A stretch of 64,000 nucleotides of DNA from Pseudomonadota bacterium (GTDB lineage Bacteria > Myxococcota_A > Polyangia > JAAYKL01), in contig JALNZK010000012.1 in assembly GCA_023229365.1 (NCBI GenBank), forward strand, positions 3,472 to 67,471, read 5' to 3'. Made by a program: the position numbers and the translations under genes. Below are positions 2 through 54,468 of the stretch, piece after piece. Below the pieces are notes generated by a model. That model did not search any database. It was not told the origin of the DNA and saw nothing but the letters and a program-made list of their open reading frames with translations. Within the stretch, counting starts at the first letter, position 1. Each line of letters begins with the position of its first letter.

Positions 2-1624
2 GAGCGCGAGGGCGACTACGCCCTGGTCGCGACGACGCCGAGCTCGAGCACCGAGTACATCACCAGCCAGGAAGACATCTTCGCCAAGCTCCCGATAGGC
101 GCGCTGAACCTCGCCGCCGAGTTCCGCGCCGGAGACAGGTGGTCGCTCGACTACGTCATCGTCGGGATGCGGCGGGCGCGGACTGCGGCGTTCGGCCGCG
201 ACGCGCTCTCCGTCGGGTGCGCGCGTGCGACGCACTTCGTTTCCGGCATGGCGATAGGCGCGTACCGCCTCGTGTCCGAAGCGCGCCGCCGAGCGGGCGT
301 GGAGGCAGGCGTTTCCGGCGCGGGCGCCGGCGCGTCGACCGCTGCGGGCGCGGGCACGCTGCGCCAGGACGGCTTCCCGGAGACGTGCGCCGGCGAGCAG
401 GCGCGCGCCGACGATCCGCGCTGCCAGGCGATCGTGCAGCTGTTCCTCGAGCCTTTAGGCGAACGGGCCGCGGACGAGCAGCCGGCGGCCCCCGCGAGCG
501 GCGCCGGGGCGGGCGCGGCGACCCCGCCTGTCGCCGTGACGCAGAAGGGCGCCGCCAGCTACGGCGCGCAGCTCGAGGGGGCGTGGGCCGCGCTGCGCGA
601 CAAGGCGAAGGGCGCCGATCTGGAGCGTCGGCTCGAGCTGTACCAGCGGTTCCTCAGCGACTACCCGGTGGAGAACCCGCACGCGGCCGGCGCGCGGCAG
701 GAGATCGCGCGCATCGACGACGCGCTCGCGGCGAGGGCAGCGGCAGAGGGTGCGGACGCCGAGAAGGAGAGGAAGCTCGCCGCCGAGCGCGAGCGGGCGA
801 CGCTGATCCGTGAGGCGTACGAGGCCGCGCGCGGGGCGAAGGGCAGCGCGGCCGAACGGCTGGCGATCTGGAAGCGGTTCATCCAGGCCTACCCGGGAGA
901 GGACAACCCGTACCTGAAGACCGCGATCCGCGAGGCGAAGCGGCTCTCCGCGCAGGGCGAGACGTCGTCGAAGGAGGTCGGTCCCGCGGGCGTGGAGTGG
1001 GTCTACTCGGCTCCCGCCGGCGTGCGCTTGACGCGGAGCGAGATCACGGTGGAGCAGTACCGGGCGTGCGTGGGCGCCGGGGCCTGCTCGTCGGCGGGCC
1101 TCGGCGTGCCGTTCGACGGCGCCGTCGAGCGCCCGGAAGCGGCGGCGACGTGCAACTGGGGAAAGGCCGGCCGCGGGAAGCACCCGATGAACTGCATCGA
1201 TTGGCGGCAGGCGGTGGCGGTGTGCGCCTGGCTCGGCGGCAGGCTGCCGACGGAGGAGGAGTGGGCCGCGGAGGCGTCCGACGCCGGCGGGCGTCTGTGG
1301 CCGTGGGCCGGGGCCGCCGGCGTCTCCTGCGATAGGGCGGTGTGGGGCGGGGGCGCCGAGGGGGACGGCTGCGGCCGCGGTGCGACCTGGCCGGTCTGCT
1401 CGAAGCGCGGCGGCGACAGCGCCTCCGGGCTCTGTGACGTCGTCGGCAACCTCTGGGAGTGGACGAGCTCGGCCTACGACGGCGAGCACGACTGGCGCGT
1501 GCAGCGCGGCGGCTCCTGGCACACGGGCGATCCGTCGCTGGCGACCGCGCAGGTGCGGGGCAGCGCCGGTCCGACGCAACGGGACGGGTACACAGGCGTG
1601 CGCTGCGCGCGGACCGGGAGCTGA
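2..1624 (+). CDS. 5'-partial protein with C-terminal formylglycine-generating-enzyme (FGE-sulfatase/SUMF1) domain. The frame is open from the window edge.
   Basis: Frame 2 has no stop from nt 2. The C-terminal region carries FGE motifs (RLPTEEEW, NLWEWT, GGSWH, GVRCAR). The N-terminal part has TPR-like repeats. Confidence 0.75.
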   Translation, partial: EREGDYALVATTPSSSTEYITSQEDIFAKLPIGALNLAAEFRAGDRWSLDYVIVGMRRARTAAFGRDALSVGCARATHFVSGMAIGAYRLVSEARRRAGVEAGVSGAGAGASTAAGAGTLRQDGFPETCAGEQARADDPRCQAIVQLFLEPLGERAADEQPAAPASGAGAGAATPPVAVTQKGAASYGAQLEGAWAALRDKAKGADLERRLELYQRFLSDYPVENPHAAGARQEIARIDDALAARAAAEGADAEKERKLAAERERATLIREAYEAARGAKGSAAERLAIWKRFIQAYPGEDNPYLKTAIREAKRLSAQGETSSKEVGPAGVEWVYSAPAGVRLTRSEITVEQYRACVGAGACSSAGLGVPFDGAVERPEAAATCNWGKAGRGKHPMNCIDWRQAVAVCAWLGGRLPTEEEWAAEASDAGGRLWPWAGAAGVSCDRAVWGGGAEGDGCGRGATWPVCSKRGGDSASGLCDVVGNLWEWTSSAYDGEHDWRVQRGGSWHTGDPSLATAQVRGSAGPTQRDGYTGVRCARTGS

Positions 1625-2093: not shown

Positions 2094-2975
2094 CTACTCC
2101 CAGTAGTAATAGGGGTTGTACGGGCGCGGGGGCGGGGGCGGTGCGAAGCCGGGGTCCGGGCTGTGTGGGAACGGATTCGGTTCGTAGGGGCGGGGCGGCG
2201 GCGGGTAGTAGGGCCGGATGACGCCGCGGGCGATCAGCCCTTGGTGATCGTCATAGTAGATTGCAAGCTTGGAGTCGGGCCGGCGGCTTCGCCGTTCGAA
2301 CGTCGTCTCGGAGGCGGGCGAGTAACGATCCTCCCCGTAGCCGGTGCCGATCCCCTGCTCGGAGCGCTCGCGCGCCGCGTAGCCACCCGCCGCGTCACCG
2401 CTCGCGGACGGCGCGGCCGACTTGCCGTGAGAGGAGCCGAGCCTGCGGGACTCGTAGTAGTCGTCTTCGTATACCGGAACGGGGCGCCTGTCCTTCTCAC
2501 GGAAGATCGCGACGCCGATCACGCCGACGTCGCTGTCGTCGCCCATGCGTGCTGCGTAGGACTCCTCCACCTCAGTGAACCGGAACGCCGCGACGCCGCT
2601 CCATGACGTCCTGAACCCGTCGATCTCCACCGAGGCATACGGGTCGATGACGTACCCGCGCTGGCGCTTGTAGTTGCCCTGGCGGCCCGTGATCACGTCA
2701 CGGCCGTCCACGGTGACAACCGCCTCGACGCGCTCGCCGGTGCCGTTGTAGACGCGGATCGTGTATCGCAGCCCCTGGCGCCCTTCGACGAAGGTGTAGC
2801 CGCGATGATGGTACGTCGGCAGGACGCCGTCGTCCGAGTCGATCTGGACGCTGAAACTCCCGCCCCACGAAACCGAACGGGACATCTTCTGCGCGGCGGC
2901 GGGCGCCGCGTACAACGCTACGGCGACGGCGCCGGCGGCGACCGCGAGGGCGACTGTCGAAACGGAACGGCGCAT
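2094..2975 (-). CDS. secreted hypothetical protein with a proline-rich C-terminal tail
   Basis: N-terminal signal peptide (ALAVAAGAVAVALYAAPAAAQ), AGGAGGA RBS, and PPPPRPY repeats at the C-terminus. Confidence 0.6.
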   Translation of the reverse strand: MRRSVSTVALAVAAGAVAVALYAAPAAAQKMSRSVSWGGSFSVQIDSDDGVLPTYHHRGYTFVEGRQGLRYTIRVYNGTGERVEAVVTVDGRDVITGRQGNYKRQRGYVIDPYASVEIDGFRTSWSGVAAFRFTEVEESYAARMGDDSDVGVIGVAIFREKDRRPVPVYEDDYYESRRLGSSHGKSAAPSASGDAAGGYAARERSEQGIGTGYGEDRYSPASETTFERRSRRPDSKLAIYYDDHQGLIARGVIRPYYPPPPRPYEPNPFPHSPDPGFAPPPPPRPYNPYYYWE

Positions 2976-3048: not shown

Positions 3049-3699
3049 CTACTCGCGCTGTCCCCGATGCATTCCCTCGCGCCAGCGCCGCAGGTCCTCT
3101 GCCGTGTCGATATCCCACAACGTCGGGCCGCGCCGCACCGAGAAGCCGGAGCTCATGACCGCGTGCTCCAGCGCGGCGAGCGCGCCTCCTGTCCCGAGAG
3201 GGACGGTGCGGAGCGCCTCGCGGATATCGACCGTGGCACCGAGCGCCCAGAAGCCGCCGTCCTCGGCGGGACCTATCGACACGTCCGCCTCGTCGAGCAG
3301 GGATGCTGCGCTGAGCACGTCGGCGGGAGCTATCTCGGGGTGATCCGCACCGACGGCGACGACGCCGCGCCGCGGGGCGTTCGGGTCGGGGCAAAACAGC
3401 GCGCAGAGGTTCCCGAGCATGTCCGCGTTCGGCTGGGGACGCAGGTTCGAGGCGATCGCGGCCGGAAGCGGAGACGACGCCGGCCACTCCCCGAGGTGCC
3501 AGAGCACCGGTGCGAGATCCGGTCGCTCCCGGCACGCCGCGACGACAGCGGCGATGGTCCTGTCGAGCAGCTCTGTGTACACGGCGAGCGCCTCAGCCGC
3601 CCCGATCTCCTCGGCGAGGCGCGTCTTGACGCGGCCGAGGATCGGCGCACGCACGAACAGCGCGATCTCGAGCATCCCTCTTTTCTTGTCTGTCCCCAC
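3049..3699 (-). CDS. DUF2064 family protein (TIGR04282-like, 'rSAM/selenodomain-associated transferase 1'; CofC/MobA-like nucleotidyltransferase fold)
   Basis: N-terminal motif LFVRAPILGRVKTRLA is characteristic of DUF2064. A GTG start with an AAGGA RBS is likely. Confidence 0.7.
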   Translation of the reverse strand: MGTDKKRGMLEIALFVRAPILGRVKTRLAEEIGAAEALAVYTELLDRTIAAVVAACRERPDLAPVLWHLGEWPASSPLPAAIASNLRPQPNADMLGNLCALFCPDPNAPRRGVVAVGADHPEIAPADVLSAASLLDEADVSIGPAEDGGFWALGATVDIREALRTVPLGTGGALAALEHAVMSSGFSVRRGPTLWDIDTAEDLRRWREGMHRGQRE

Positions 3700-3743
3700 G
3701 TTGCGTCCTTATCCTATCGGCAATCCCCCATCAACGTGTCCGC

Positions 3744-4595
3744 CTACCCCGTGAACGTCGACTGTCGAGCGCCGGTGGACGCCTTGGAGTAGCAGTACGC
3801 GCACCCTCCGAGGCACACGTCGTCGTAGCGGCCGATCTCCTCGCTCTCGACGCAGAGGCAGTGCGTCCGCTGGGAGCGATCCCGGCCCAGCGTGCAGGGC
3901 TCTCCGTGCGGATGGCCATGGGCGAGGATGTCCGCGGGAACGCACTGCGCGGGCTGGACGTACGGGCTCAACGAGAGGTTGTCGGGTTGCGCGCACGAGA
4001 GGAGCGCGATGCCGAGCGGTCGCGCGATTTCGACCATCGAGCGCACGAAGGCCGGTTTCTCCTCTTCGCGCCAGCGAGGGATCCCCGCGGCCTCGAACTG
4101 CGGAGCCAGATCGCCCTTGAGGCTGCGATACGAAGGAAAGGAGAACGTGCACGTGGTCACGCCGAGCGCCGACATCGCGGCCGCGATACGTGCGAAGTCT
4201 TCGAGCCGCGAGTGTCCGGCGAGGATCGGATCGAACCGCCACCGCACGCGCCAGGGCTCGTCGTGGAAGGCGCCGACGAGCGCCGGCAGGGCGTCGATCG
4301 CGGCGTCGACGGACGGTGTCGCGGGTTCGAGGCGTCCTCCGCCGAGTCCCGTGATCGTGAGGTTGACGATCGGGTTCGCGAGCTCGAGGCGCACGAGATC
4401 GTGGAGCGCGCCGCCGCGGAGGAAAGGTGCGAGGTGTCTCGTCCAGAAAACGACGCCATAGAGCGGGCGCGTTCTCGAGCGCGCCACCCGGCCGCGGATC
4501 CGGGACGCGCACGTCTCGGCGTGGAAGCCAGGCAGATCGGTGCGCCGCGACGCGGACAGGATGAGCGGGCGGCCGCTCTTTTCGGGCTGGCCCAT
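3744..4595 (-). CDS. DUF1848 family protein with a C-terminal CxxxCxxC cysteine cluster
   Basis: N-terminal ILSASRRTD signature. The C-terminus has VCLGGCAYCY (C-x3-C-x2-C) plus further Cys residues (CLC). Length about 283 aa. Confidence 0.65.
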   Translation of the reverse strand: MGQPEKSGRPLILSASRRTDLPGFHAETCASRIRGRVARSRTRPLYGVVFWTRHLAPFLRGGALHDLVRLELANPIVNLTITGLGGGRLEPATPSVDAAIDALPALVGAFHDEPWRVRWRFDPILAGHSRLEDFARIAAAMSALGVTTCTFSFPSYRSLKGDLAPQFEAAGIPRWREEEKPAFVRSMVEIARPLGIALLSCAQPDNLSLSPYVQPAQCVPADILAHGHPHGEPCTLGRDRSQRTHCLCVESEEIGRYDDVCLGGCAYCYSKASTGARQSTFTG

Positions 4596-4706
4596 CGCGG
4601 CATTCTATCCCGGCGGGCCGCTCGCGTCAGCCTCGCAGCGAGAGGGTCGCATTGACCTGCCCGCGGCTGTGTGATAGTTGATTGGCAACGATTTCGGGAG
4701 GTTGCA

Positions 4707-4970
4707 ATGCGCGTAATTGAGACCGAAGAGGCCGCCCGGCGACTGGCGCGGGCGATCGCATCGGACCTGTCACTCTACAATGAGGACAAGATCCTCGAGG
4801 GGCTCCAGGCCGACAACCTCTACGAGATCCTCGCCGAGGAGATCGAAGAGGGGCGCGAGCTGTTCCGCGGCCGCGTCATGCCCGAGCTGTTCGGGCTGAA
4901 TTTCTACGATCGCGCGATTATCGATCTGCTCATCAAGTCCAAGGGCCACATCAAGTGCAAGCTCTGGTAG
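4707..4970 (+). CDS. small acidic hypothetical protein
   Basis: ORF with a GGGAGG RBS 7 nt upstream of the ATG at 4707. It sits immediately upstream of the rluD-like gene. Confidence 0.45.
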   Translation: MRVIETEEAARRLARAIASDLSLYNEDKILEGLQADNLYEILAEEIEEGRELFRGRVMPELFGLNFYDRAIIDLLIKSKGHIKCKLW

Positions 4971-4974
4971 GTCG

Positions 4975-5961
4975 GTGATCCACGAACCTTCCCTTTCGGA
5001 AAGCGACATCCTCGACGTCTGGCGCTGGGTCGTGGAGGACGGCGATCGCGGTGCGCGGCTCGACAAGTTCCTGTCCCGCCAGGAAGACGTCGAGATCACG
5101 CGATCGCAGCTGAAGCGGGTCATCGACGCGGGGTTCGCGCGCGTCGACGGAACGGCCGCACGCCCGGCGAGACTCCTTCGGCCCGGTCAGATCGTCGAGT
5201 TGCGCGTGCCGCCCCCCGAGCCGCTCTCGGCCGAGCCCGAGCCGATCCCGATCGAGATCCGCTACGAGGACGAGCACGTCGTGGTCGTCGACAAGCCGCA
5301 GGGGCTCGTCGTGCACCCGGCCCCGGGCCACGCGCGCGGGACGCTCGTGAACGCCCTGCTGCACTGGTGCGCGCCGCGGGGAGGCGATCCGCTTCGCCCG
5401 GGCATCGTCCACAGGCTCGACAAGGACACCTCCGGGTTGATGGTCGTCGCCAAGACCGAGGCGGCCCACGCGCACCTCGCGGTGCAGTTCCACGAGCACA
5501 CCGTAGATCGACGCTACCGGGTCCTCGTTTCCGGGACGCCTCCGGATCGCGGCGAGTGGCGCACGCTGCACGGCAGGCGCGAGGGCGATCGCAAGCTGTT
5601 CAGCTCGCGGGTGAGGCGCGGCAGGAGCGCGGTGAGCGCTTTCGAGACCGTGGAGCGTTTCCCCGCCGGGCCGGCGGCGATGCTCGCCGTGACGCTGTCG
5701 ACCGGGCGGACCCACCAGGTGCGCGTGCATTGTGCGGACCACGGCCTTCCGGTGCTCGGCGATCGCGCGTACGGCCCCAAGCACCTCCAGCCCGCCCTGC
5801 GCGCGGTCCACGATGCGCTCCCCGGACAGGCGCTCCACGCCGAGTTGCTGGGGTTCGACCATCCGATCCTCGGACGGCGGATGACGTTCACGAGCGAGCC
5901 GAACCCCGCGTTCTCGGCCGCGCTCGACGCGCTGCGCCACCTCGGCGAGGCGATCGGCTGA
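4975..5961 (+). CDS. rluD: RluA-family 23S rRNA pseudouridine synthase (RluD/RluC-like) with an N-terminal S4 domain
   Basis: Motifs HRLDKDTSGLMVVAKT and GRTHQIRVH; S4-like N-terminus. Confidence 0.85.
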   Translation: MIHEPSLSESDILDVWRWVVEDGDRGARLDKFLSRQEDVEITRSQLKRVIDAGFARVDGTAARPARLLRPGQIVELRVPPPEPLSAEPEPIPIEIRYEDEHVVVVDKPQGLVVHPAPGHARGTLVNALLHWCAPRGGDPLRPGIVHRLDKDTSGLMVVAKTEAAHAHLAVQFHEHTVDRRYRVLVSGTPPDRGEWRTLHGRREGDRKLFSSRVRRGRSAVSAFETVERFPAGPAAMLAVTLSTGRTHQVRVHCADHGLPVLGDRAYGPKHLQPALRAVHDALPGQALHAELLGFDHPILGRRMTFTSEPNPAFSAALDALRHLGEAIG

Positions 5962-6197
5962 CCGACCCCGAGCCTTCACTTCCATCTGTTGGTTCGAATA
6001 TTGCTTCCGACGGGAGACGGATTTTGCCGAAAAGATGACAAGACTGTTATAAGTACGCGAAAATCCAGGAATGATGGAACGGAGAATCGACAAGCTCGGG
6101 ACGAGGTGTTGCTGAAACGACACGCTTGCAGTGTGGCAAACGCGTGTCACTGTGACTTTTTGATACAGTTTCGAATTGGAATATGAGGAATTTCGAG
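5962..6197 (+). promoter_or_regulatory. AT-rich (roughly 45% GC) intergenic leader upstream of the cytidylyltransferase-transaminase fusion gene
   Basis: A marked GC drop relative to the ~70% GC surroundings. A GAGGA RBS lies before the ATG at 6198. Confidence 0.25.
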
Positions 6198-8063
6198 ATG
6201 AAGCGCGCTATCGTACTCGCGGATGAACGAAGTGCTAGAATCGTAAATGGTTCCGGGCATATGAAGGCTCTGGCGAAGGTGGGCGGACTGCCGCTCATCA
6301 TCCGGAACCTCCGGACCCTGCACGCGGCGGGCGTCGAGGAAGCGATCGTCGTCACCGGCTATCAGGACCAGCGCGTGCGGCGAGCGCTCGAGAGCTATCA
6401 CCTCGGCATCAAGGTCACCGTGGTGCACAACGAGAACTGGCACCTCGGCAGCGCCCACTCCCTGATCGCCGCTTCGGGGTGGATCGAGGACCAGACGATA
6501 CTCGTTCCGTCGGACCACATGTACCCGCCGTCGCTCGTGCGGCGCGTCATCCACTGCCCGGTCGCCGCGGACTCGGTGCTGCTCGCGGTGGACCGACGCC
6601 GCGACGAGGTGTTCGACGAGGAGGAGTGCATCAAGGTCCGGCTCAAGGGCGATCTCGTCACCGATCTCGGGACCGACCTTGACGACGCGGATGGCGTCTG
6701 TCCGGGGCTCGTGCGGATCTCCGCACAGCTCGTGGAGCGCCTGCGGCGGCTGCTGCACGACGTCGACATCGATCTCCTCGACGCGCTCCGCGCCATGGCC
6801 CGACGCGGCCAGGTGCGCACGCTGGACGTCGAGAACGCCCGGTGGATCAGCATCTCGAGCCCGCAGGCGCGCCGCTACGCCGAGCTGCTCCTGCAGCTCC
6901 ATGGCGACACGCTCGAGACTGCCTACGCCGGGGAGCACGCCGTGCTGCTGAACCCCGGTCCCGTGGTGACAACACCGCGCGTCAAGGCCGCCGTCGGGGC
7001 GCGCGACATGTGCCACCGCGAGCCGATCTTCTCGAGCCTGTTCGATTCCGTGACGCGGAAGATGAAGACGGTGTTCTGCGCGGACAAGGACCACGACGTG
7101 CTCGTCGTCACCGCGTCGGGCACGGGCGGCATGGAGTCGGCGATCAACACGTTCGTCCCGGCGACCGGGAAGTTCCTCGTGATCAGGAACGGCGCGTTCG
7201 GCGAGCGGCTGGCCGAGATCGCGCGGACGCACGGCATCGCGGTCGAGGAGATCGCGCTGTCCTGGGGCGCACCGATCCCGCTCGACGAGGTGGAGCGCCT
7301 GCTCGACGCGCGGCCCGACATCAAGGCCGTGGGCATCGTGCACCACGAGACCTCGGTCGGCGTGCTGAACCCGGTCGCCGCCGTGGGCGCCATGACGCGC
7401 AAGCGGGGGGTGACGCTCATCGTGGACACGGTTTCGAGCCTCGGGGCCGAGGACGTCGACGTTGTGCGCGACAACATCGACGTGTGCGTCGCGAGTGCCA
7501 ACAAGTGCCTGCACGCGTTCGCCGGCCTCGTATCGGTCTGCGTTCGCCGGGACGTTTGGCAGACCATCGAGGGCGACAAGCCGCGGTCGTACTACCTGGA
7601 TCTGCGAAGGTACCGCGCGTTCCTCAGGGACCGCTGCCAGACGCCCTTCACGCCGGCGGTCAACACGATGATGTCGCTCAACGCGGCGCTGGACGAGCTG
7701 CTCGAGGTCGGGCTCGTCGGACGGCGCAACCACTACGTGCGCCTGAACGATCGCATCCGGCGCGGGCTCCTGTCGCTCGGCATGGACCTGGTCGACGAGG
7801 AGCGCTCGTCGCACAGCATCACGGTCGTCAAGGTGCCGGACGGCATGACGTACCAGGACATTTACCTCGGCCTCAAGGATCGCGGGTTCATCGTCTACGA
7901 GAGCAAGGGCGCCATGTCCGGGGGGTACTTCCAGGTCGCCAACATGGGCGCGCTCGAGGAGATCCACATCGACGAGTTCCTCGCCGCCATGGGGCAGGTG
8001 CTCGCCGAGGCACGCCACGGCTCGCTCGTCTCCGCCGCCGCCGGGGCGCTGCGGCTCGTCTGA
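6198..8063 (+). CDS. bifunctional nucleotidyltransferase (LicC/PntC-like cytidylyltransferase) fused to 2-aminoethylphosphonate:pyruvate aminotransferase (PhnW-like, class V)
   Basis: The N-terminal ~240 aa resemble an NTP-transferase (KALAKVGGLPLI..AIVVTGY). The C-terminal ~360 aa resemble PhnW (LLNPGPVVTTPRVKAA; SANKCL active-site Lys region). Confidence 0.7.
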   Translation: MKRAIVLADERSARIVNGSGHMKALAKVGGLPLIIRNLRTLHAAGVEEAIVVTGYQDQRVRRALESYHLGIKVTVVHNENWHLGSAHSLIAASGWIEDQTILVPSDHMYPPSLVRRVIHCPVAADSVLLAVDRRRDEVFDEEECIKVRLKGDLVTDLGTDLDDADGVCPGLVRISAQLVERLRRLLHDVDIDLLDALRAMARRGQVRTLDVENARWISISSPQARRYAELLLQLHGDTLETAYAGEHAVLLNPGPVVTTPRVKAAVGARDMCHREPIFSSLFDSVTRKMKTVFCADKDHDVLVVTASGTGGMESAINTFVPATGKFLVIRNGAFGERLAEIARTHGIAVEEIALSWGAPIPLDEVERLLDARPDIKAVGIVHHETSVGVLNPVAAVGAMTRKRGVTLIVDTVSSLGAEDVDVVRDNIDVCVASANKCLHAFAGLVSVCVRRDVWQTIEGDKPRSYYLDLRRYRAFLRDRCQTPFTPAVNTMMSLNAALDELLEVGLVGRRNHYVRLNDRIRRGLLSLGMDLVDEERSSHSITVVKVPDGMTYQDIYLGLKDRGFIVYESKGAMSGGYFQVANMGALEEIHIDEFLAAMGQVLAEARHGSLVSAAAGALRLV

Positions 8064-10548: not shown

Positions 10549-10598
10549 TCCAGCATCATGGTCGCGCCCGCGCGGAGCGCGGCGGCTCGGGCGATCGG

Positions 10599-10683
10599 CG
10601 GAGAGATAGGGATTCGAACCCTAGGTACCTTGCGGTACACACGATTTCCAGTCGTGCACCTTCGGCCACTCGGTCATCTCTCC
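10599..10683 (-). tRNA. tRNA-Ser (anticodon GGA), no encoded CCA
   Basis: Reverse complement folds as a cloverleaf with a long variable arm: GGAGAGATGACCGAGTGGCCGAAGG...anticodon loop CTGGAAA...GGTTCGAATCCCTATCTCTCCG. Confidence 0.9.
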
Positions 10684-10713
10684 TTTTCCAAAGAGTGCGG
10701 GCTTGACGCCCGG

Positions 10714-10799
10714 CGGAGAGAGTGGGATTCGAACCCACGGAGGTAGTTAGCCTCACACGATTTCGAATCGTGCGCCTTCGGCCACTCGGCCATCTCTCC
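10714..10799 (-). tRNA. tRNA-Ser (anticodon CGA), no encoded CCA
   Basis: Reverse complement GGAGAGATGGCCGAGTGGCCGAAGGCGCACGATTCGAAATCGTG...GGTTCGAATCCCACTCTCTCCG with a long variable arm. Confidence 0.9.
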
Positions 10800-27680: not shown

Positions 27681-27906
27681 CGCTCGACCTCCGCCGCACG
27701 GGTGTTCCCGTAATGCATAGACATACAGAGGGACGTATAAGTTCCCATCATGATCACGGAATTACGAAAAAAAAATGTAAATGCTTTGTATGTTCGGGGC
27801 GAGGAACGCGCGGCCGGAGCTTGCGCGTCTTTCGGCCGAATGAGATGGTATCGTGCGGCGCCGCAAGGGCGGTGCGTGGCCCCGGGGACGAGGGGAGAAT
27901 CGTGAG

Positions 27907-28899
27907 ATGACCGGACTATTCGCACGCGACGCGCGGGACATCCTCGATCTCGAGGGGCACGCGCTCGTCTCCGCCATGGCCGAGTCGAGTCGCCTGCGGG
28001 AGCGCCGGCACGGCCGCTCGGTCAACCTGTGCTGGATCGCCAACGCGCGCAGCGGCTCCTGCGATCAGGACTGCGCGTTCTGCGCCCAGTCGTCCCGTTC
28101 CGAGGCCCCCATCGAGAAGCACCCGCTCCTCGGCGCGGACGAGATCGTGCGGGCGGCGAGGAAGGCGGCGGACGGCGGCGCGGTGCGGTTCAGCATCGTG
28201 ACTTCCGGGGGCGCCATGCGCCGCGGCAGCATGCTCGACACGGTGCTCGCCGCGATCGCCCGCATCCGCAATGAGACCGGGCTCGACGTGTGCGCCTCGC
28301 TCGGGTGCGTGGAGCGCGGCGTGCTCGACGATCTCAAGCGCGCGGGGCTCACGCGGTACCACCACAACGTCGAGGCGGCCGAGTCGTTCTGGCCGCGCGT
28401 GTGCTCGACGCGGCCGTACGCCGAGCAGCGGCGCGTCGTCGGCGACGCGGCGGCGGCGGGGCTCGAGGTCTGCTGCGGCGGCATCTTCGGGATGGGCGAG
28501 TCGCTCGACCAGCGCATCGAGCTGCTCGAGGAGGTCCGCGCGCTCGAGGTCGACTCGGTCGCGATCAACTTCTTCACGCCGATCTCCGGGACGCCGCTCG
28601 GCGGGATCGCGCCCATCCCGGCGCTCGACTGCCTGCGCGTCGTCATCGCCGCGCGGATGATGATGCCGCGGCGCGACATCCGGGTGTGCGGCGGACGGGA
28701 GCGGAACGTCCGTGACATCCAGGCGCTGCTGCTGCTCGGCGGCGCCTCCGGGATCATGATCGGGGGGTACCTCACGACGACCGGGCGGCCGCCGGAAGAG
28801 GATCTCGCCATGATCCGCGATCTCGGTTTCGTGCCGGACGAGATCCCGGAGGGGCGCGACACGGTCTCGGCGCCCGAACCGGAGAGCCGTCGTGCCTGA
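27907..28899 (+). CDS. bioB: biotin synthase (radical SAM)
   Basis: CDQDCAFCAQSS (CxxxCxxC), YHHNVEAAESFWPRV...T, CCGGIFGMGES, SVAINFF. Confidence 0.85.
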   Translation: MTGLFARDARDILDLEGHALVSAMAESSRLRERRHGRSVNLCWIANARSGSCDQDCAFCAQSSRSEAPIEKHPLLGADEIVRAARKAADGGAVRFSIVTSGGAMRRGSMLDTVLAAIARIRNETGLDVCASLGCVERGVLDDLKRAGLTRYHHNVEAAESFWPRVCSTRPYAEQRRVVGDAAAAGLEVCCGGIFGMGESLDQRIELLEEVRALEVDSVAINFFTPISGTPLGGIAPIPALDCLRVVIAARMMMPRRDIRVCGGRERNVRDIQALLLLGGASGIMIGGYLTTTGRPPEEDLAMIRDLGFVPDEIPEGRDTVSAPEPESRRA

Positions 28900-51380: not shown

Positions 51381-52385
51381 TTAGCGTTCGTTTGCGCACT
51401 GCGGGTCGTCGGCGAGGGGATCGCCCGAGACCGCGCTCGCGAGCGCGCGGCAGCCGGCGCAGCCCGGGAGGTCGCAGGCCGCGCAGCGCGGGCCCGAGAG
51501 GCGAGGGCGGATCGCGTCCGGCGCCCAGGCGGCGAGCCGCTCCCGGATCGCCGCGAACGGCTCCTCGAGGACGTTGCCGACGGCGATCGGCAGGCGCCGG
51601 CACGGGTACACCGTCCCGTCGGGCATGAGGCACATCGAGTCCGGCCCGAGGTTGCAAAGCGCGCCCGAGAGCGGCTCGTCGGCGCCCGGGCTCGTGTCCA
51701 CCCAGAACGCCCGGTGCGCGAGCAGATCCCCGGGCTCCGCGTCGACGCCGGCGGCGGCGGCGATCGCGCGCGCGGCCGCGCTCCACTCCCGCGGGCCGAG
51801 GAGATCGCCGCGCATGGCGGCGCCCCGCCCGAGCGGGACGAACCTCTCGAAGATGACGCCGGAAGCCCCGCTCTCCCGGGCCAGGTCGACGGCGGAGGCG
51901 ATCGACGCGGCGTTGCGTCTCGAGAGCGTGAGCATGAGCACGACCGGGCGACCGGTCGCGAGGAATCGCGGGAGGTTTTGCATCACCGCGTCGAAGTGGC
52001 CGGGCCAGCGCAGCGCATCGTCGATCCCACGATCGCCGCCCTCGATCGAGATCTTGAAGCACCCGAGCTTGGGGAGCGCCGCGATCTCGTCGAGGACCGC
52101 GCGATCGGCGATCGTCCCGTTCGTGATGACGTTCACCTCGTCGAGCGCCTCGTGGCGGTGCAGGGCGCCGAGAAGATCGGTGAGGCGCGGCTGGAGGAAC
52201 GGCTCGCCGCCGGTGACGTTGATCGAGACGCGGTGGTCGCGCAACCCGCCGAGCACTCGCCCGGCGACGTCGACGAGGCCGCCCAGCCCGAGCTCGCGCG
52301 CGCTCGTGAAGTCGGACTGATAGCAGTGCGCGCAGCTGCCGTCGCACCTGTCCGTCACGTGCCACTGGAAGCCGAATTCGCGCAT
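51381..52385 (-). CDS. radical SAM / SPASM-domain protein (short, 334 aa)
   Basis: N-terminal CDGSCAHC (CxxxCxxC); C-terminal SPASM cysteines CNLGPDSMC...PC and CAACDLPGCAGC. Confidence 0.8.
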   Translation of the reverse strand: MREFGFQWHVTDRCDGSCAHCYQSDFTSARELGLGGLVDVAGRVLGGLRDHRVSINVTGGEPFLQPRLTDLLGALHRHEALDEVNVITNGTIADRAVLDEIAALPKLGCFKISIEGGDRGIDDALRWPGHFDAVMQNLPRFLATGRPVVLMLTLSRRNAASIASAVDLARESGASGVIFERFVPLGRGAAMRGDLLGPREWSAAARAIAAAAGVDAEPGDLLAHRAFWVDTSPGADEPLSGALCNLGPDSMCLMPDGTVYPCRRLPIAVGNVLEEPFAAIRERLAAWAPDAIRPRLSGPRCAACDLPGCAGCRALASAVSGDPLADDPQCANER

Positions 52386-52449
52386 GCGGAGAGTATTACT
52401 CCGGAAAACGGTCGAAGATGAAGGGGGTTCAGCGAATGAGAGCGCGACT

Positions 52450-54468
52450 CTAGTCGGTCAGCAGGCGAATGTTGTCGACATAGACGTCGTTGCCGTATCC
52501 GGAATTGGCGACGAGCCGGAACTGGGCGGTCGCGCTGCCGGCGAGCTCGGTCGAGAGATCCACGAGCTCCGCGGCCCACGCGTCACCTTCGCTCGAGTAG
52601 CGCAGGAATAGCGGACCGACGTTGGTCCAAGCCGTGCCGTCGAATACCTGCACCTGGATACTGTCGTTGGCGTAGCCATAGCCGTCGTCGTGGAACATGT
52701 CGAACGAGAGAAACGCAACCGTCGCTGTAGACAGATCGATCGCTGCCGACTCGAGGCTCGCCGTGTCACCGCTGTAGTCGTAGGAATTGAAACGCGCGAT
52801 GTACGAGCCATCGGTTGGCGCACCGCCGGCCGGGTTCACCGTCGCCGCGGCCTGTGCCCAAGTCGCAGTTCCGGTCGGCGCGCCGAGGGTGAGGTTGGTG
52901 GGCGGCCACGCCTCGAAGCTCTCGGACCACAGAACCGTCAGCGCCACGATGGAGTCCACCGTGACGGTCACCGTGTAGTCGACCGCCGGGAAGCCGGTGG
53001 CGGCCTCGTCCAGGACGATGTAGTAGGTCGCGCCGTCGGTGAGCGTCACCGCGAACGAACCCTCGCCCGTCGCCGTGTCGTCGGTAGCCAGCACGGTGCC
53101 CGTGCCGTCCCGGATCTCAACGATCGCGTCGTCGGTGAGCGTCTCGAGACAGTACGAAACGGTGGCGAAGACCGTGTCGGTGGTGGTGCCGCCGTCCACG
53201 GCGAACGAGAAGTAGTCGTCGCCGCTCGTGGTGTCGTCCTCCAGCAGGCCGCACGCCGCGACGTCGTCGCCGGCCGCCGTCAAGGTGACCGCGGTGCTCA
53301 CGGCGGTGGCGATGTCGCCGTTGCCGTTGGAGGTGCCGGTCACGTCGCCCGTCTCGGTGACGCCGTCCACCGGGCACGCGCAGGTCGGGGGCAGGCACTC
53401 CACCGGAGCCGCGGCGTCGTCGCAGCCGTCATCGCACACCGTCGTCTCGGTCCAGCCGAGGCCGTCGGCGTCGCAGGTCTCGATGTTGTCGCCGACGCTG
53501 CACTGCGTCTCGCCCGGCGTGCAGATCTGCTCGCAGGCGTACTCGCCCGAGCCCACGCTGGTCTCCGCGCACGCCGCCGGGCAGTCGAGCAGCACCCACT
53601 CGAGGCCGTCCTCGGAACAGGTCTCCAGGTTGGCGTCGCCGTTGCACAGCGTCGTGTCGGGAACGCACAGGGCGTCGTACACGCACGCTTCGCCGACGTA
53701 CCACTCGTCGGCCCAGTCGCCGGTGTAGAGGAACGCCAGGGTGACCGCCGGCTCGCCGGCGAAGGCCGCGAGGTCTGCGGACGACGTGACCCACACCTCG
53801 TTCGTGTAGCCGGTCGAGTCGTACTCCGCGATCAGGGTGAAGTCCGTCACGTCGGTGACCGTCGCCTGGGCCGCGCCGTACACGAAGTGCCCGTCATAGT
53901 AAGTTGGGAAATAGATCGCTTCTTCGAAAACGAGGACCGGCGTGGTCATGCCCGTGAGATCGAACGCCGGCGAGATCAGCCAGTCGCTCGCGCCCGTGGC
54001 CACGTTGTCGTCGTTGTGCCAGGCGTACGCGGGATCGTCGCCGTCCACGAACGGCCAATCGGCCTCGAACTGCCACCCCGCCGGGTCGCCCGCTTGGATC
54101 TCGGTCCAGCCCTCCGGCATGACGCCGCCGTCGAACGACTCGCAGGGCTCGGCCTCTTCGCCGCCATCGACCCCGGCGTCTTCGGCGCCGCCGTCCGCGT
54201 CGGTGTCGGTGTCGGTGTCGGTGTCAGTGTCAGTGTCGGTATCGGTGTCAGTGTCCGAATCAGTGTCAGTGTCGGTATCGGTGTCGGTGTCCGAATCGGT
54301 GTCGGTGTCGGTGTCGGTGTCCGAGTCGGTGTCGGTGTCGGTGTCGGTGTCCGTGTCCGAATCACCGCCGCCTCCGCCTCCGTCGTCGCATCCGGAGATC
54401 GAGAGAGTCGAGAACCCCAATACCAGCACCAGCACTGCAATCCACCCAAGTTTTCCGTTCATTCTCAT
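52450..54468 (-). CDS. large lipoprotein with a long (T-D)n repeat, an N-terminal jelly-roll-like domain, Cys-rich repeats and a C-terminal beta-sandwich domain
   Basis: Lipobox SISGCDD; a roughly 60-residue [14 protein letters not shown] stretch; the [10 protein letters not shown] / [10 protein letters not shown] repeated unit. Confidence 0.65.
54196..54366 (-). repeat. near-perfect (GTCGGT/GTCAGT)n hexanucleotide repeat encoding (T-D)n
   Basis: GTCGGTGTCGGTGTCGGTGTCAGTGTCAGTGTCGGTATC... Confidence 0.85.

What the first reader, a model, noticed from the sequence alone, without database searches (positions are those of the whole stretch)
3049..4595. Adjacent DUF2064 (rSAM-associated transferase-like) and DUF1848 genes; DUF1848 carries a radical-SAM-type CxxxCxxC at its C-terminus
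The 3049-3699 product has the DUF2064/TIGR04282 signature (LFVRAPILGRVKTRL). That family of CofC/MobA-like transferases is characteristically found beside radical-SAM/Cys-rich-domain enzymes. Its neighbour here, 45 nt upstream on the same strand, is a DUF1848 protein (ILSASRRTD). Its only cysteine cluster is C-terminal (VCLGGCAYCY = C-x3-C-x2-C, plus CLC). That is a circularly permuted arrangement relative to canonical radical SAM enzymes. Two orphan families paired as a candidate [4Fe-4S] enzyme plus nucleotidyl/glycosyl transferase suggests an uncharacterised small-molecule or cofactor modification module.
Basis: partly seen in the sequence, partly recalled or inferred. Interest (0 to 1): 0.6.

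Follow-up and report, generated by a model that had tools for sequence, protein, structure and literature searches.

The report
Rearranged radical-SAM-like enzyme beside a nucleotidyltransferase
Two adjacent genes of unknown function are real, and one looks like a radical SAM iron-sulfur enzyme whose cluster-binding loop has moved to the C-terminus, but the two genes sit together only in one narrow bacterial lineage, so there is little evidence that they work as a team.

Summary
Window 3744-4595 (-) encodes a full-length DUF1848 protein (PF08902, E 8e-37). Window 3049-3699 (-), 44 nt downstream, encodes a DUF2064 protein (PF09837, E 2.4e-14).

DUF1848 is very probably a radical SAM superfamily enzyme with a relocated cluster loop.
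- Its C-terminal C261-x3-C265-x-Y-C268-Y is invariant in an unbiased sample of 143 relatives (median 30% identity).
- That loop matches the N-terminal cluster loop of SPL-like PA0069 radical SAM proteins (hhalign probability 94%).
- Circularly permuting the sequences brings out sub-threshold Pfam Radical_SAM hits.
- Four more invariant cysteines (C201, C218, C246, C248) suggest an auxiliary cluster.

The proposed two-enzyme module is weakly supported. DUF2064 lies within 6 kb of DUF1848 in 1 of 80 species-level genomes, and DUF1848 lies near 0 of 80 distant DUF2064 genes. The pair occurs only in orthologues at least about 68% identical, sometimes with opposite-strand genes in between, inside a block that is syntenic as a whole. 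Distant DUF2064 genes instead pair with the canonical radical SAM ArsS, so a partner swap cannot be excluded. Both genes are ordinary members of catalogued but uncharacterised families.

The parts
3744..4595 (-). DUF1848 gene (283 aa): radical-SAM-like (beta/alpha) barrel enzyme with a C-terminal cluster loop
3792..3815 (-). Codons for C261-L-G-G-C265-A-Y267-C268: the C-x3-C-x-aromatic-C radical-SAM-type [4Fe-4S] loop, followed by invariant Y269
   Evidence: Read directly from the sequence. 100% conserved in 143 unbiased representatives. Aligns to the PA0069 N-terminal loop YRGCEHGCVYCFARP.
3852..3995 (-). Region holding the four further invariant cysteines C201 (3993-3995), C218 (3942-3944), C246 (3858-3860) and C248 (3852-3854): candidate auxiliary Fe-S (or metal) site
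   Evidence: 99-100% conserved in 143 representatives and 81 locus-derived sequences. The role is inferred, not shown.
4536..4556 (-). Codons for S14-A-S-R-R-T-D20, the invariant loop after the first beta strand; T19-D20 is proposed as the counterpart of the Ser-Asp that binds the SAM amino group in SPL
   Evidence: Conservation. The SPL Ser142/Asp143 role comes from PMC3467042. The equivalence is an inference from motif resemblance (SRRTDLP against PA0069 GTNTDPY).
3049..3699 (-). DUF2064 gene (216 aa; alternative start at 3675): CofC/FbiD-like nucleotidyltransferase
3700..3743 (-). 44-nt intergenic spacer between the two genes, with no terminator-like hairpin
   Evidence: Co-transcription is inferred. 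The spacer is 4 nt in the P0011 contig, 7 nt in L081 and 170 nt in L169.
4602..4630 (-). Sigma-70-like promoter match (CTGACG, 17 nt, TAGAAT) directly upstream of the DUF1848 start codon
   Evidence: 2 sites found against 0.2 expected in shuffles. This is a consensus match only.
2094..2975 (-). 293-aa protein with no family match (signal-peptide-like N-terminus, Pro-rich C-terminus); the most constant neighbour of DUF2064 in the clade
   Evidence: A full-length homologue follows DUF2064 directly in P0011, L169, L083, the P0012 contig and L001, and a truncated ORF follows in L081. A homologue is present without DUF2064 in L004. No Pfam, NCBIfam, PADLOC or PHROGs family.

Best explanation
These are two ordinary chromosomal members of catalogued but uncharacterised families, in an uncultured Myxococcota-like bacterium.

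DUF1848 is a radical SAM superfamily enzyme with an unusual layout. The [4Fe-4S]-binding C-x3-C-x-Tyr-C loop, which normally follows the first strand at the N-terminus, is supplied by the C-terminal tail. This is a circular-permutation-type relocation. The tail probably folds back over the C-terminal face of a (beta/alpha) barrel. There the invariant residues at the strand ends (S16-R-R-T-D20, W51-T-K/R, T80/T82/G83...E90, R120-x-D122-P123) would form the SAM and substrate pocket. Four further invariant cysteines (C201, C218, C246, C248) most likely hold an auxiliary Fe-S cluster.

Its cluster loop is most like that of the SPL / PA0069 / Rv2578c ('DNA repair photolyase') clade. Relatives are fused to a ParB DNA-binding domain or a DNA methylase, or partner a defence reverse transcriptase. 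The many invariant arginines also fit a phosphate-rich substrate. The most likely substrate is therefore a nucleic acid (DNA repair or modification). That step is inferred.

DUF2064 is a CofC/FbiD-like nucleotidyltransferase that would join an NMP to a small phosphorylated acceptor.

The two genes are probably co-transcribed in this genome. Their adjacency is a lineage-restricted feature of a locally syntenic block (99-aa ORF - RluD / DUF1848 / DUF2064 / 293-aa ORF), not a conserved functional module.

Shown: family membership, residue conservation, fold class, loop homology and the synteny statistics. Inferred: Fe-S binding, SAM cleavage, the auxiliary cluster, the nucleic-acid substrate and co-transcription.
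For: - Family membership.
- Seven invariant Cys plus Y267 and Y269 in 143 unbiased representatives (median 30% identity). The family has 3,182 clusters at 50% identity with E<=1e-3 and is nearly always single-domain.
- Loop homology: the DUF1848 HMM hits two PA0069-family proteins exactly at their N-terminal cluster loop. hhalign gives tail 249-275 against PA0069 53-84 at probability 94.2%, E 1e-7, score 58.7. The LipA control scores 22.7.
- Permutation: the permuted DUF1848 profile gives one collinear 151-column alignment at probability 95.5%. Permuted sequences gain PF04055 hits (20.5 bits spanning profile 6-146 of 166; 23.2 bits). In native order three of the four relatives tested, and the window protein, give none, and the fourth gives a 15-bit fragment. 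Of 18,950 NCBIfam models, only PA0069 and Rv2578c are hit.
- DNA link: ParB-HTH and N6_N4 DNA methylase fusions. PADLOC model RTasDUF1848 and the UG25 RT association (PMC9226505). An AlkB neighbour on a Planktothrix plasmid. PA0069 described as an SOS-regulon gene.
- DUF2064 fold.
- Synteny.
Against: - No DUF1848 member reaches the PF04055 gathering score. The window protein gives no PF04055 hit even when permuted.
- The core register between DUF1848 and PA0069 is ambiguous. hhalign and my by-eye motif matching disagree, and permutation adds only about 6 score units.
- Cys-Cys distances could not be measured, because no coordinates are returned.
- No biochemical data exist in the searchable literature.
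- The DNA-substrate inference rests on a handful of fusions and contexts. Most contexts are uninformative housekeeping genes.
- Within its own small subclade, DUF2064 lies within 2.5 kb of DUF1848 in all 7 loci with enough flank. That is compatible with a real functional link.
Confidence: 0.6

Rival explanations
1. One reading: DUF1848 and DUF2064 form a genuine two-enzyme module for small-molecule or cofactor modification. The Fe-S/radical enzyme makes or alters a phosphorylated metabolite, and the CofC-like transferase nucleotidylates it. In this view the divergent DUF2064 subclade exchanged its usual canonical radical SAM partner (ArsS) for the permuted DUF1848.
For: - The genes share a strand, are 44 nt apart, have no terminator between them and have a promoter-like site upstream of the first. 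The gaps are 4 and 7 nt in two relatives.
- In all 7 loci of the close DUF2064 subclade with enough flank, DUF1848 is within 2.5 kb.
- Distant DUF2064 genes are truly partnered with a radical SAM enzyme: ArsS is present in 29 of 80 loci.
- The close clade has no ArsS or other canonical radical SAM nearby, so DUF1848 is the only radical-SAM-like neighbour.
Against: - 79 of 80 species-level DUF1848 loci lack DUF2064 within 6 kb, even with a profile HMM. None of 80 distant DUF2064 loci has DUF1848.
- In the P0012 contig, L001 and L083, one or two opposite-strand genes separate the pair.
- Orthologues at 62-63% identity already lack DUF2064.
- The whole neighbourhood (RluD, the 99-aa ORF, the 293-aa ORF, FliO/FliP/Lon) is syntenic in the same genomes, so adjacency carries little independent weight.
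- DUF2064's more constant neighbour is the 293-aa ORF.
- DUF1848 fusions point to DNA, not to small molecules.
Confidence: 0.2
2. DUF1848 is not a SAM-radical enzyme. The cysteines hold a structural or redox Fe-S cluster or zinc, as in Fe-S DNA glycosylases or zinc ribbons. The TIM-like barrel then performs polar chemistry (hydrolase, nuclease or lyase) on a phosphorylated or nucleic-acid substrate.
For: - No PF04055 hit above threshold in any member.
- Foldseek finds only generic TIM barrels such as isopropylmalate synthase, aldolases and OYE.
- There is no canonical GGE motif.
- Seven cysteines could make other metal sites.
Against: - The motif is the full C-x3-C-x-aromatic-C with invariant Tyr, followed by a second invariant Tyr, as in SPL (C-x-Y96-C97-Y98; PMC3467042).
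- It aligns specifically to the PA0069 cluster loop at 94% probability.
- Permutation raises the PF04055 scores.
- SPL itself lacks GGE and uses Ser-Asp, and DUF1848 has an invariant Thr-Asp.
Confidence: 0.15
3. The locus is part of an anti-phage defence system of the DRT (UG25 reverse transcriptase plus DUF1848) type.
For: The window protein hits the PADLOC model RTasDUF1848 at E 1.5e-31. UG25 RTs are reported to associate with a DUF1848 protein (PMC9226505). Homologues occur in a few phages and plasmids.
Against: - No reverse transcriptase or methylase ORF lies near the gene. Its neighbours are the 99-aa ORF/RluD, DUF2064 and the 293-aa ORF.
- The same housekeeping context is conserved in relatives.
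- The PADLOC hit is simply family-level similarity.
- Only 5 plasmid and 6 phage records carry a homologue.
Confidence: 0.03

Closest known systems
Pfam PF08902 (DUF1848), an uncharacterised family
   Same: Full-length HMM match (127.9 bits), the same length class (about 260-310 aa), and all family-invariant residues including the seven cysteines.
   Different: Nothing distinguishes the window protein from the family. It belongs to a Myxococcota-type subclade. From memory, not from a tool result, the Pfam entry already remarks that the C-terminal cysteines resemble the N-terminal radical SAM cluster motif.
SPL-like radical SAM clade (spore photoproduct lyase 4fhc; PA0069 NF033668; Rv2578c NF038135; annotated 'DNA repair photolyase')
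   Same: - The cluster loop Y-x-x-C-x-x-G-C-x-Y-C-[YF]-A, including the aromatic before and after the third Cys.
- A [ST]-D dipeptide after a core strand in place of GGE.
- A T-K/R motif and a [ST]-I-T-x-L...E-P-x-x-P motif.
- Links to DNA.
   Different: - The loop is at the C-terminus, not the N-terminus.
- DUF1848 has four extra invariant cysteines.
- There is no significant core sequence similarity: NF033668 scores 13-19 bits against a cutoff of 360, and only through the loop.
- A PA0069 profile does not itself reach 4fhc by sequence, so clade membership of DUF1848 is not established.
Canonical radical SAM superfamily (Pfam PF04055)
   Same: C-x3-C-x-aromatic-C motif, a partial or full (beta/alpha) barrel, and best structural matches to PFL-AE, HemN, MqnE, RlmN, NifB, viperin, LipA, MiaB and others.
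   Different: The motif position is permuted. The PF04055 score is below threshold in every member tested, and PF04055 is absent for the window protein. SAM cleavage is untested.
TIGR04282 / ArsS-associated DUF2064 transferases and PDB 3cgx
   Different: The score is 109 bits, below the 134-bit cutoff. It belongs to a small separate subclade: about 20 clusters at E<1e-35, followed by a gap to E 1e-19. No ArsS is nearby, whereas ArsS accompanies 29 of 80 distant members.
CofC / FbiD guanylyltransferases of F420 biosynthesis (7p97, 2i5e, 6bwg)
   Different: TIGR03552 scores 26.5 bits against a cutoff of 105. No F420 genes lie nearby. The substrate is unknown.

Membership tests
DUF1848 (PF08902) | Pfam HMM score at or above the gathering threshold (30.5 bits), over the full domain | tested here: met
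   127.9 bits, E 8e-37, profile positions 1-261 of 262.
DUF1848 (PF08902) | Family-invariant residues: S-R-R-x-D loop, W51, T80, E90, R120-x-D-P, and the seven Cys including the C-terminal C-x3-C-x-Y-C-Y | tested here: met
   All are present in the window protein. Each is 94-100% conserved in 143 unbiased representatives.
DUF2064 (PF09837) | Pfam HMM score at or above the gathering threshold (25.8 bits) | tested here: met
TIGR04282 (arsenosugar-associated DUF2064 equivalog) | NCBIfam score at or above the curated cutoff (134 bits) | tested here: not met
   109.4 bits.
TIGR04282 (arsenosugar-associated DUF2064 equivalog) | Genomic association with the radical SAM (seleno)protein ArsS (TIGR04167) | tested here: not met
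   A local ArsS HMM finds nothing in the 64-kb window or in close-clade loci L001, L081, L082, L083 and L169. It finds ArsS in 29 of 80 distant DUF2064 loci.
Radical SAM superfamily (PF04055) | Pfam Radical_SAM HMM score at or above the gathering threshold (29.5 bits) | tested here: not met
   The window protein gives no hit, native or permuted. Relatives reach at most 15.4 bits native and 23.2 bits permuted.
Radical SAM superfamily (PF04055) | C-x3-C-x-aromatic-C motif that ligates a site-differentiated [4Fe-4S] cluster | tested here: met
   The sequence motif C261-LGG-C265-A-Y267-C268 is present and invariant. Actual cluster binding cannot be tested here.
Radical SAM superfamily (PF04055) | Cluster motif located after beta-1 at the N-terminus of the core | tested here: not met
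   The motif is at residues 261-268 of 283. The loop after the first strand reads S-R-R-T-D instead.
Radical SAM superfamily (PF04055) | Partial or full (beta/alpha) TIM-like barrel resembling solved radical SAM cores | tested here: met
Radical SAM superfamily (PF04055) | The three motif cysteines are clustered in 3D over the barrel, and the enzyme cleaves SAM reductively | not testable with these tools
   Model coordinates are not returned. The tail has pLDDT 86-93, so it is confidently placed, but distances could not be measured. Biochemistry is required.
SPL-like / PA0069 / Rv2578c radical SAM clade | NCBIfam NF033668 or NF038135 score at or above the cutoff (360 / 430 bits) | tested here: not met
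   13-23 bits, restricted to the cluster loop. These were nevertheless the only NCBIfam hits among 18,950 models.
SPL-like / PA0069 / Rv2578c radical SAM clade | Profile-profile homology over the catalytic core | tested here: inconclusive
   The loop aligns at probability 94%. The permuted profile extends the alignment to 151 columns at probability 95.5%, but the core contributes only about 6 score units and the register is ambiguous.
CofC/FbiD (TIGR03552) | NCBIfam score at or above the cutoff (105 bits) | tested here: not met
DRT UG25-type defence system | DUF1848 protein encoded next to a UG25 methylase-reverse transcriptase | tested here: not met
   The PADLOC RTasDUF1848 model is hit at 108 bits, but no RT or methylase ORF neighbours the gene.

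The most novel reading that the evidence does not exclude
DUF1848 is a large, wholly uncharacterised family (over 3,000 clusters at 50% identity) of circularly permuted radical SAM enzymes. Each would carry a C-terminal SAM cluster plus a four-Cys auxiliary cluster and act on DNA (lesion repair or base modification). In addition, in this Myxococcota lineage a divergent CofC-like DUF2064 has replaced its usual canonical partner (ArsS) with this permuted enzyme, creating a new two-step pathway.
Probability: 0.12. Interest if true: 0.65.

Novelty: new member of a known kind. Interest (0 to 1): 0.35.

Why it matters
Taken at face value, the locus is ordinary: two members of catalogued DUF families whose adjacency is a narrow lineage feature.

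The DUF1848 family as a whole is what deserves attention. It looks like a genuine radical SAM relative in which the cluster-binding loop has moved to the other end of the chain, with a second conserved four-cysteine site. It has no published biochemistry and is absent from the canonical PF04055 census. If it is confirmed to cleave SAM, it would add a permuted topology to the radical SAM superfamily. It would also show that motif-position-based searches undercount the superfamily. The ParB and DNA-methylase fusions, the reverse-transcriptase partnership, and the resemblance of the loop to the SOS-linked 'photolyase-like' PA0069 clade give a concrete hypothesis to test: radical chemistry on DNA.

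The DUF2064 result also matters for annotation. This subclade should not inherit the 'arsenosugar biosynthesis glycosyltransferase' name, because it fails the cutoff, lacks ArsS, and is structurally closest to the CofC/FbiD nucleotidyltransferases.

Tried and rejected
1. ArsL (arsinothricin 'noncanonical radical SAM') as a relative of DUF1848: rejected. ArsL has a canonical motif and an RCCLKC tail, so it is a different family.
2. Sequence search of PDB with the DUF1848 protein and with its profile: no meaningful hits.
3. Bridging PA0069 to SPL 4fhc by profile search: no hit. The residue equivalences to SPL Ser142/Asp143/Lys174 therefore remain an inference.
4. hhalign of DUF1848 against LipA (a canonical radical SAM, built from neighbouring genes in the loci): not significant, score 22.7. 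I used it as a control.
5. Crude gene calling and ORF clustering in the 80 DUF1848 loci to find a universal partner: many shadow ORFs. The recurrent real neighbours (an LptB-like ABC ATPase in 24 loci, LipA, aspartate racemase, YfiH-like, DmpA) reflect lineage synteny, and none is DUF2064.
6. Defence-system reading: rejected for this locus, since no RT is present and there is no PHROGs hit.
7. Foldseek against PDB: only generic TIM barrels, not discriminating.
9. The look-up of encoding contigs for the window's own protein: not on record.
10. Literature searches for DUF1848, DUF2064, PF08902, PF09837, TIGR04282 and their IPR ids: no functional study found.
11. Measuring Cys-Cys distances in the model: impossible, because coordinates are not exposed.
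Full report

Yes. The ORF list shows two minus-strand ORFs at exactly the stated coordinates.

- ORF 3744-4595 (283 aa, ATG start) matches Pfam PF08902 (DUF1848) at E 8e-37. It scores 127.9 bits against a cutoff of 30.5, over profile positions 1-261 of 262.
- ORF 3049-3699 (216 aa, GTG start) matches PF09837 (DUF2064) at E 2.4e-14, 53.6 bits against a cutoff of 25.8. An in-frame ATG at 3675 is the start used by some homologues.
- The DUF2064 ORF also matches NCBIfam TIGR04282 at 109.4 bits. That is below the model's curated cutoff of 134 bits, so it is a DUF2064 protein but not a member of the TIGR04282 equivalog.

The spacer is 44 nt (3700-3743). No terminator-like hairpin lies between the genes, and a sigma-70-like site (4630-4602) sits just upstream of the first gene. 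Both proteins are 100% identical to proteins of a public MAG labelled 'Proteobacteria bacterium', and the nearest relatives are Myxococcota or Polyangia MAGs. The region is about 69% G+C. All the quoted peptide motifs are present.

**2. What is the DUF1848 protein?**

*Conservation.* I first aligned 30 relatives of 43-83% identity, then 81 sequences taken from genome loci. Those loci had been retrieved with peptide patterns that included the two motifs, so I treated that conservation as biased. I repeated the analysis on the top 150 hits of an index-free HMMER profile search over 1.84 billion representatives. From these I aligned 143 sequences (142 full-length hits plus the window protein), with median 30% and minimum 24% identity to the window protein.

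- Seven cysteines are 99-100% conserved in that set: C201, C218, C246, C248, C261, C265 and C268.
- Also conserved at 94-100% are S16, R17, R18, D20, W51, T80, E90, R120, D122, P123, R243, G255, Y257, Y267 and Y269.
- C149 is conserved in only 47-69% of sequences, depending on the sample.

So the tail motif is the full radical-SAM signature C-x3-C-x-aromatic-C (C261-LGG-C265-A-Y267-C268), followed by a second invariant Tyr. It is not the only cysteine feature. Four further invariant Cys give a 3+4 pattern, which is typical of a SAM cluster plus a fully ligated auxiliary cluster (inference).

The family holds 3,182 clusters at 50% identity with E<=1e-3 and 1,793 with E<=1e-10. Nearly all are single-domain proteins of 260-310 aa.

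*Fold.* AlphaFold2 with the 30-sequence alignment gave a confident model: pLDDT 91.7, pTM 0.90, and 86-93 in the Cys-rich tail. It shows seven beta/alpha units, then short C-terminal strands and the Cys loop.

- Foldseek gave only weak generic TIM-barrel matches.
- Sequence searches of PDB found nothing.

*A specific sequence link, found by accident.* When I searched DUF2064 loci with a DUF1848 HMM, two weak hits appeared. Both are canonical N-terminal-motif radical SAM proteins of the PA0069 family (NF033668, 538 bits). They are related to Rv2578c and to 'mobile pair protein B', carry PF04055, and are named 'DNA repair photolyase' by JGI. They match DUF1848 at two places.

- Their N-terminal cluster loop INPYRGCEHGCVYCFARP aligns with the DUF1848 C-terminal consensus Y-d-t-C-p-h-G-C-l-Y-C-Y-A-n-p.
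- More weakly, their core motif LSITTLDaklaraMEPRaatP aligns with DUF1848 f-T-i-T-G-l-g-g..l-E-P-g-v-P.

Profile-profile comparison confirms the first match. DUF1848 249-275 aligns with PA0069 53-84 at probability 94.2%, E 1.1e-7 and score 58.7. The same tail against LipA, a canonical radical SAM profile built from genes in the loci, scores only 22.7.

*Permutation test.*

- I moved the C-terminal segment of the DUF1848 alignment to the N-terminus, trying cut points at residues 236-251. Two separate alignments then became one collinear alignment of 151 columns (probability 95.5%, score 64.6).
- The gain from the core is small. The core register chosen by hhalign also differs from the one suggested by the motifs. 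My by-eye register pairs SASRRTDLP with IGTNTDPY, VFWTK/R with TIVTKS, and TITGLGG..EP..P with SITTLD..EP..P. The core correspondence is therefore not settled by sequence.
- As an independent check, I submitted permuted sequences to the curated libraries. Pfam Radical_SAM appeared below threshold in 4 of 5. In one case it ran contiguously over profile positions 6-146 of 166 (20.5 bits, E 5.7e-4), and in another it reached 23.2 bits.
- The same proteins in native order gave no PF04055 hit for the window protein or for 3 of the 4 relatives, and only a 15.4-bit core fragment in the fourth.
- Of 18,950 NCBIfam models, the only ones hit were PA0069 and Rv2578c.
- The window protein itself gave no PF04055 hit in either order.

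*Comparison with SPL.* The SPL structure paper (PMC3467042) states the following.

- SPL lacks the GGE motif and uses Ser142-Asp143 to bind the SAM amino group.
- Lys174 and Ser195 bind the SAM carboxylate.
- Tyr96 is the aromatic of the C-x3-C-x-aromatic-C motif.
- Tyr98, next to the third Cys, is strictly conserved.

DUF1848 has invariant T19-D20 after its first strand, W51-T-[K/R] after its second, T80/T82 after its third, and Y267 and Y269 flanking C268. The resemblance is suggestive. The equivalence is an inference, because I could not bridge PA0069 to 4fhc by sequence.

*Conclusion for DUF1848.* It is very probably a radical SAM superfamily member in which the cluster loop is supplied by the C-terminus. 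From memory, the Pfam description of DUF1848 already notes that the C-terminal cysteines resemble the N-terminal radical SAM motif. That is a recollection, not a tool result.

**3. What might DUF1848 act on?**

The searchable literature has no functional study. The one substantive mention is that UG25 methylase-reverse transcriptases associate with a DUF1848 protein (PMC9226505). PADLOC accordingly has a model, RTasDUF1848, which the window protein hits at family level (E 1.5e-31). No RT is near the window gene, so this locus is not such a system.

Context elsewhere points loosely to DNA.

- Rare fusion proteins carry a ParB HTH domain (P0240), an N6/N4 DNA methylase (P0276) or a GNAT domain (P0261).
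- A Planktothrix plasmid copy lies two genes from AlkB, in a phage-like region. Other replicon contexts are uninformative.
- Homologues are rare in plasmids (5 records) and phages (6 records, including a 735-kb megaphage).
- PA0069, the loop's closest relative, is described as one of 15 SOS-regulon genes of P. aeruginosa.

Together with the many invariant arginines, this makes a nucleic-acid substrate the best guess, at perhaps 40-50% probability. It remains an inference.

**4. What is the DUF2064 protein?**

It retains every invariant residue of a 32-sequence family alignment: P19, K25, R27, L28, Q89, D119, D147-G-G and D196/D198. Its model is confident (pLDDT 95.0).

A nucleotidyltransferase acting on a small phosphorylated acceptor is therefore the best reading. 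The 'glycosyltransferase' in the NCBIfam name is less well founded. The window protein belongs to a small, distinct subclade: about 20 clusters at E<1e-35, then a gap to E 1e-19.

**5. Are the two genes a module?**

*From the DUF1848 side.* I took 80 loci from one-genome-per-species contigs (29-69% identity, up to 6 kb of flank on each side where the contig allowed). I searched them by tblastn with the window's DUF2064 and with a profile HMM built from 46 diverse DUF2064 proteins. Only L001 (69% identity) has DUF2064. There it is 2.3 kb away, with two ORFs between that fall on the opposite strand in my gene call.

*From the DUF2064 side.* I took 80 metagenome loci of distant DUF2064 genes (24-35% identity; 50 loci of at least 5 kb). 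None has DUF1848, while the control HMM recovers all 80 DUF2064 genes.

*In the close clade.* Contig look-ups gave the following.

| Locus (DUF1848 identity to the window protein) | Arrangement |
|---|---|
| Window | adjacent, 44-nt gap |
| L169 (83%) | adjacent, 170-nt gap |
| P0011 contig (70%) | adjacent, 4-nt gap |
| L081 (DUF1848 identity not computed; its DUF2064, P0123, is 68% identical to the window's) | adjacent, 7-nt gap |
| P0012 contig (72%) | separated by two opposite-strand genes |
| L001 (69%) | separated by two opposite-strand genes |
| L083 (68%) | separated by one opposite-strand gene |
| P0049 (63%), P0035 (62%), L004 (63%) | DUF2064 absent |

Everything more distant also lacks DUF2064.

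In the same genomes the flanking genes are conserved too. These are the 99-aa ORF, RluD and the NTP-transferase/aminotransferase fusion upstream, and a gene of about 295 aa with no family match, FliO/FliP and Lon downstream. The adjacency is therefore part of regional synteny and has little independent weight. The most constant neighbour of DUF2064 is the 295-aa gene. That gene also occurs without DUF2064, in L004.

The canonical radical SAM ArsS (TIGR04167, 414-444 bits in 7 of 10 ORFs tested) lies on the same strand, usually directly upstream of DUF2064. It is present in 29 of 80 distant loci, and in 19 of the 46 with at least 1.6 kb of upstream flank. Neither the window nor the close-clade loci contain ArsS or a PA0069-type protein. 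The two canonical-motif ORFs in the window are more than 20 kb away. So a DUF2064 subclade that swapped ArsS for DUF1848 cannot be excluded. In all 7 subclade loci with enough flank, DUF1848 is within 2.5 kb.

I put the functional-module reading at about 0.2.

**6. Comparison with what is known, and novelty**

Both genes are bona fide members of catalogued Pfam DUFs. Neither passes the membership thresholds of any characterised family:

| Model | Score | Cutoff |
|---|---|---|
| PF04055 | not reached | 29.5 |
| NF033668 | 13-19 bits | 360 |
| TIGR04282 | 109 bits | 134 |
| TIGR03552 | 26.5 bits | 105 |

DUF1848 works like a radical SAM enzyme with a permuted cluster loop (fold, motif and loop homology), but it cannot be filed in PF04055 or in the SPL clade. 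As a genome feature, this is a new member of known but uncharacterised kinds.

The family-level idea, a permuted two-cluster radical SAM possibly acting on DNA, is interesting and testable. However, it is partly anticipated by the Pfam annotation and is not specific to this window.

**7. Verdict**

- Observation: confirmed.
- Interpretation: partly supported. The radical-SAM-like, permuted and CofC-like parts hold.
- Interest: 0.35.

Noticed in passing
window 6183-8063 (+): A 626-aa fusion of a MobA-like NTP-transferase domain (PF12804) with a class-V aminotransferase. The aminotransferase is closest to 2-aminoethylphosphonate aminotransferase PhnW-AepZ (TIGR03301, 308 bits, below the cutoff of 360.8). 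It is 69-70% identical in L010-L012, and a similar fusion is present in the P0011 contig and L081. It looks like a phosphonate activation/tailoring enzyme.
   Followed up: partly
window 4671-4970 (+): A 99-aa ORF with no hit in Pfam, NCBIfam, PADLOC or PHROGs. It is 83-88% identical in L009-L012, where the neighbouring DUF1848 is only 49-58% identical. It ends 5 nt before the RluD-like pseudouridine synthase gene (4975-5961) and is transcribed divergently from DUF1848. This is a strongly conserved small protein of unknown function.
   Followed up: partly
window 2094-2975 (-): A 293-aa ORF with a signal-peptide-like N-terminus, a Pro-rich C-terminal tail and no family match. It is the constant downstream neighbour of DUF2064 across the clade, and it occurs without DUF2064 in L004.
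   Followed up: partly
L087-L166 (distant DUF2064 loci), e.g. L090 4921-5973, L096 4894-5964, L117 2073-3128: The arsenosugar radical SAM (seleno)protein ArsS (TIGR04167, 414-444 bits) lies on the same strand as DUF2064, usually directly upstream, in 29 of 80 loci. A common spacing of about 480 nt suggests a small intervening gene.
   Followed up: partly
proteins P0240, P0276, P0261 (DUF1848 representatives): Rare DUF1848 fusions: an N-terminal ParB HTH domain (P0240), an N-terminal N6/N4 DNA methylase (P0276) and a C-terminal GNAT acetyltransferase (P0261). P0276 is the only representative that lacks one of the seven Cys (C248 is replaced by Gly).
   Followed up: partly
window 10597-10799 (-): Two tandem tRNA-Ser genes (anticodons GGA and CGA), 28 nt apart.
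   Followed up: no
window 27844-28896 (+) and 51384-52457 (-): Two ORFs with a canonical N-terminal CxxxCxxC (CDQDCAFCAQS and CDGSCAHCYQS). The first weakly matches the LipA HMM (E 9e-8). These are presumably ordinary radical SAM enzymes, more than 20 kb from the finding.
   Followed up: no
L082 895-4111: In one relative, a PhdYeFM/PIN toxin-antitoxin pair and an AbiEi/AbiEii pair are inserted into the otherwise syntenic block between DUF2064, the 295-aa gene and FliO/FliP.
   Followed up: no
phage records LR756501.1 / LR756503.1, about 319199-319957: A 735-kb uncultured megaphage encodes a DUF1848 homologue (25% identity over 93% of the query). Four human-gut 'Bacteriophage sp.' contigs do too.
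   Followed up: no
window 167-1624 (+): A 485-aa protein with a C-terminal FGE-sulfatase (formylglycine-generating-enzyme-like) domain (E 1.2e-26) after a long Ala/Gly/Arg-rich N-terminal region. Similar FGE-domain ORFs recur near DUF1848 in L014, L017 and L021 at low identity.
   Followed up: no
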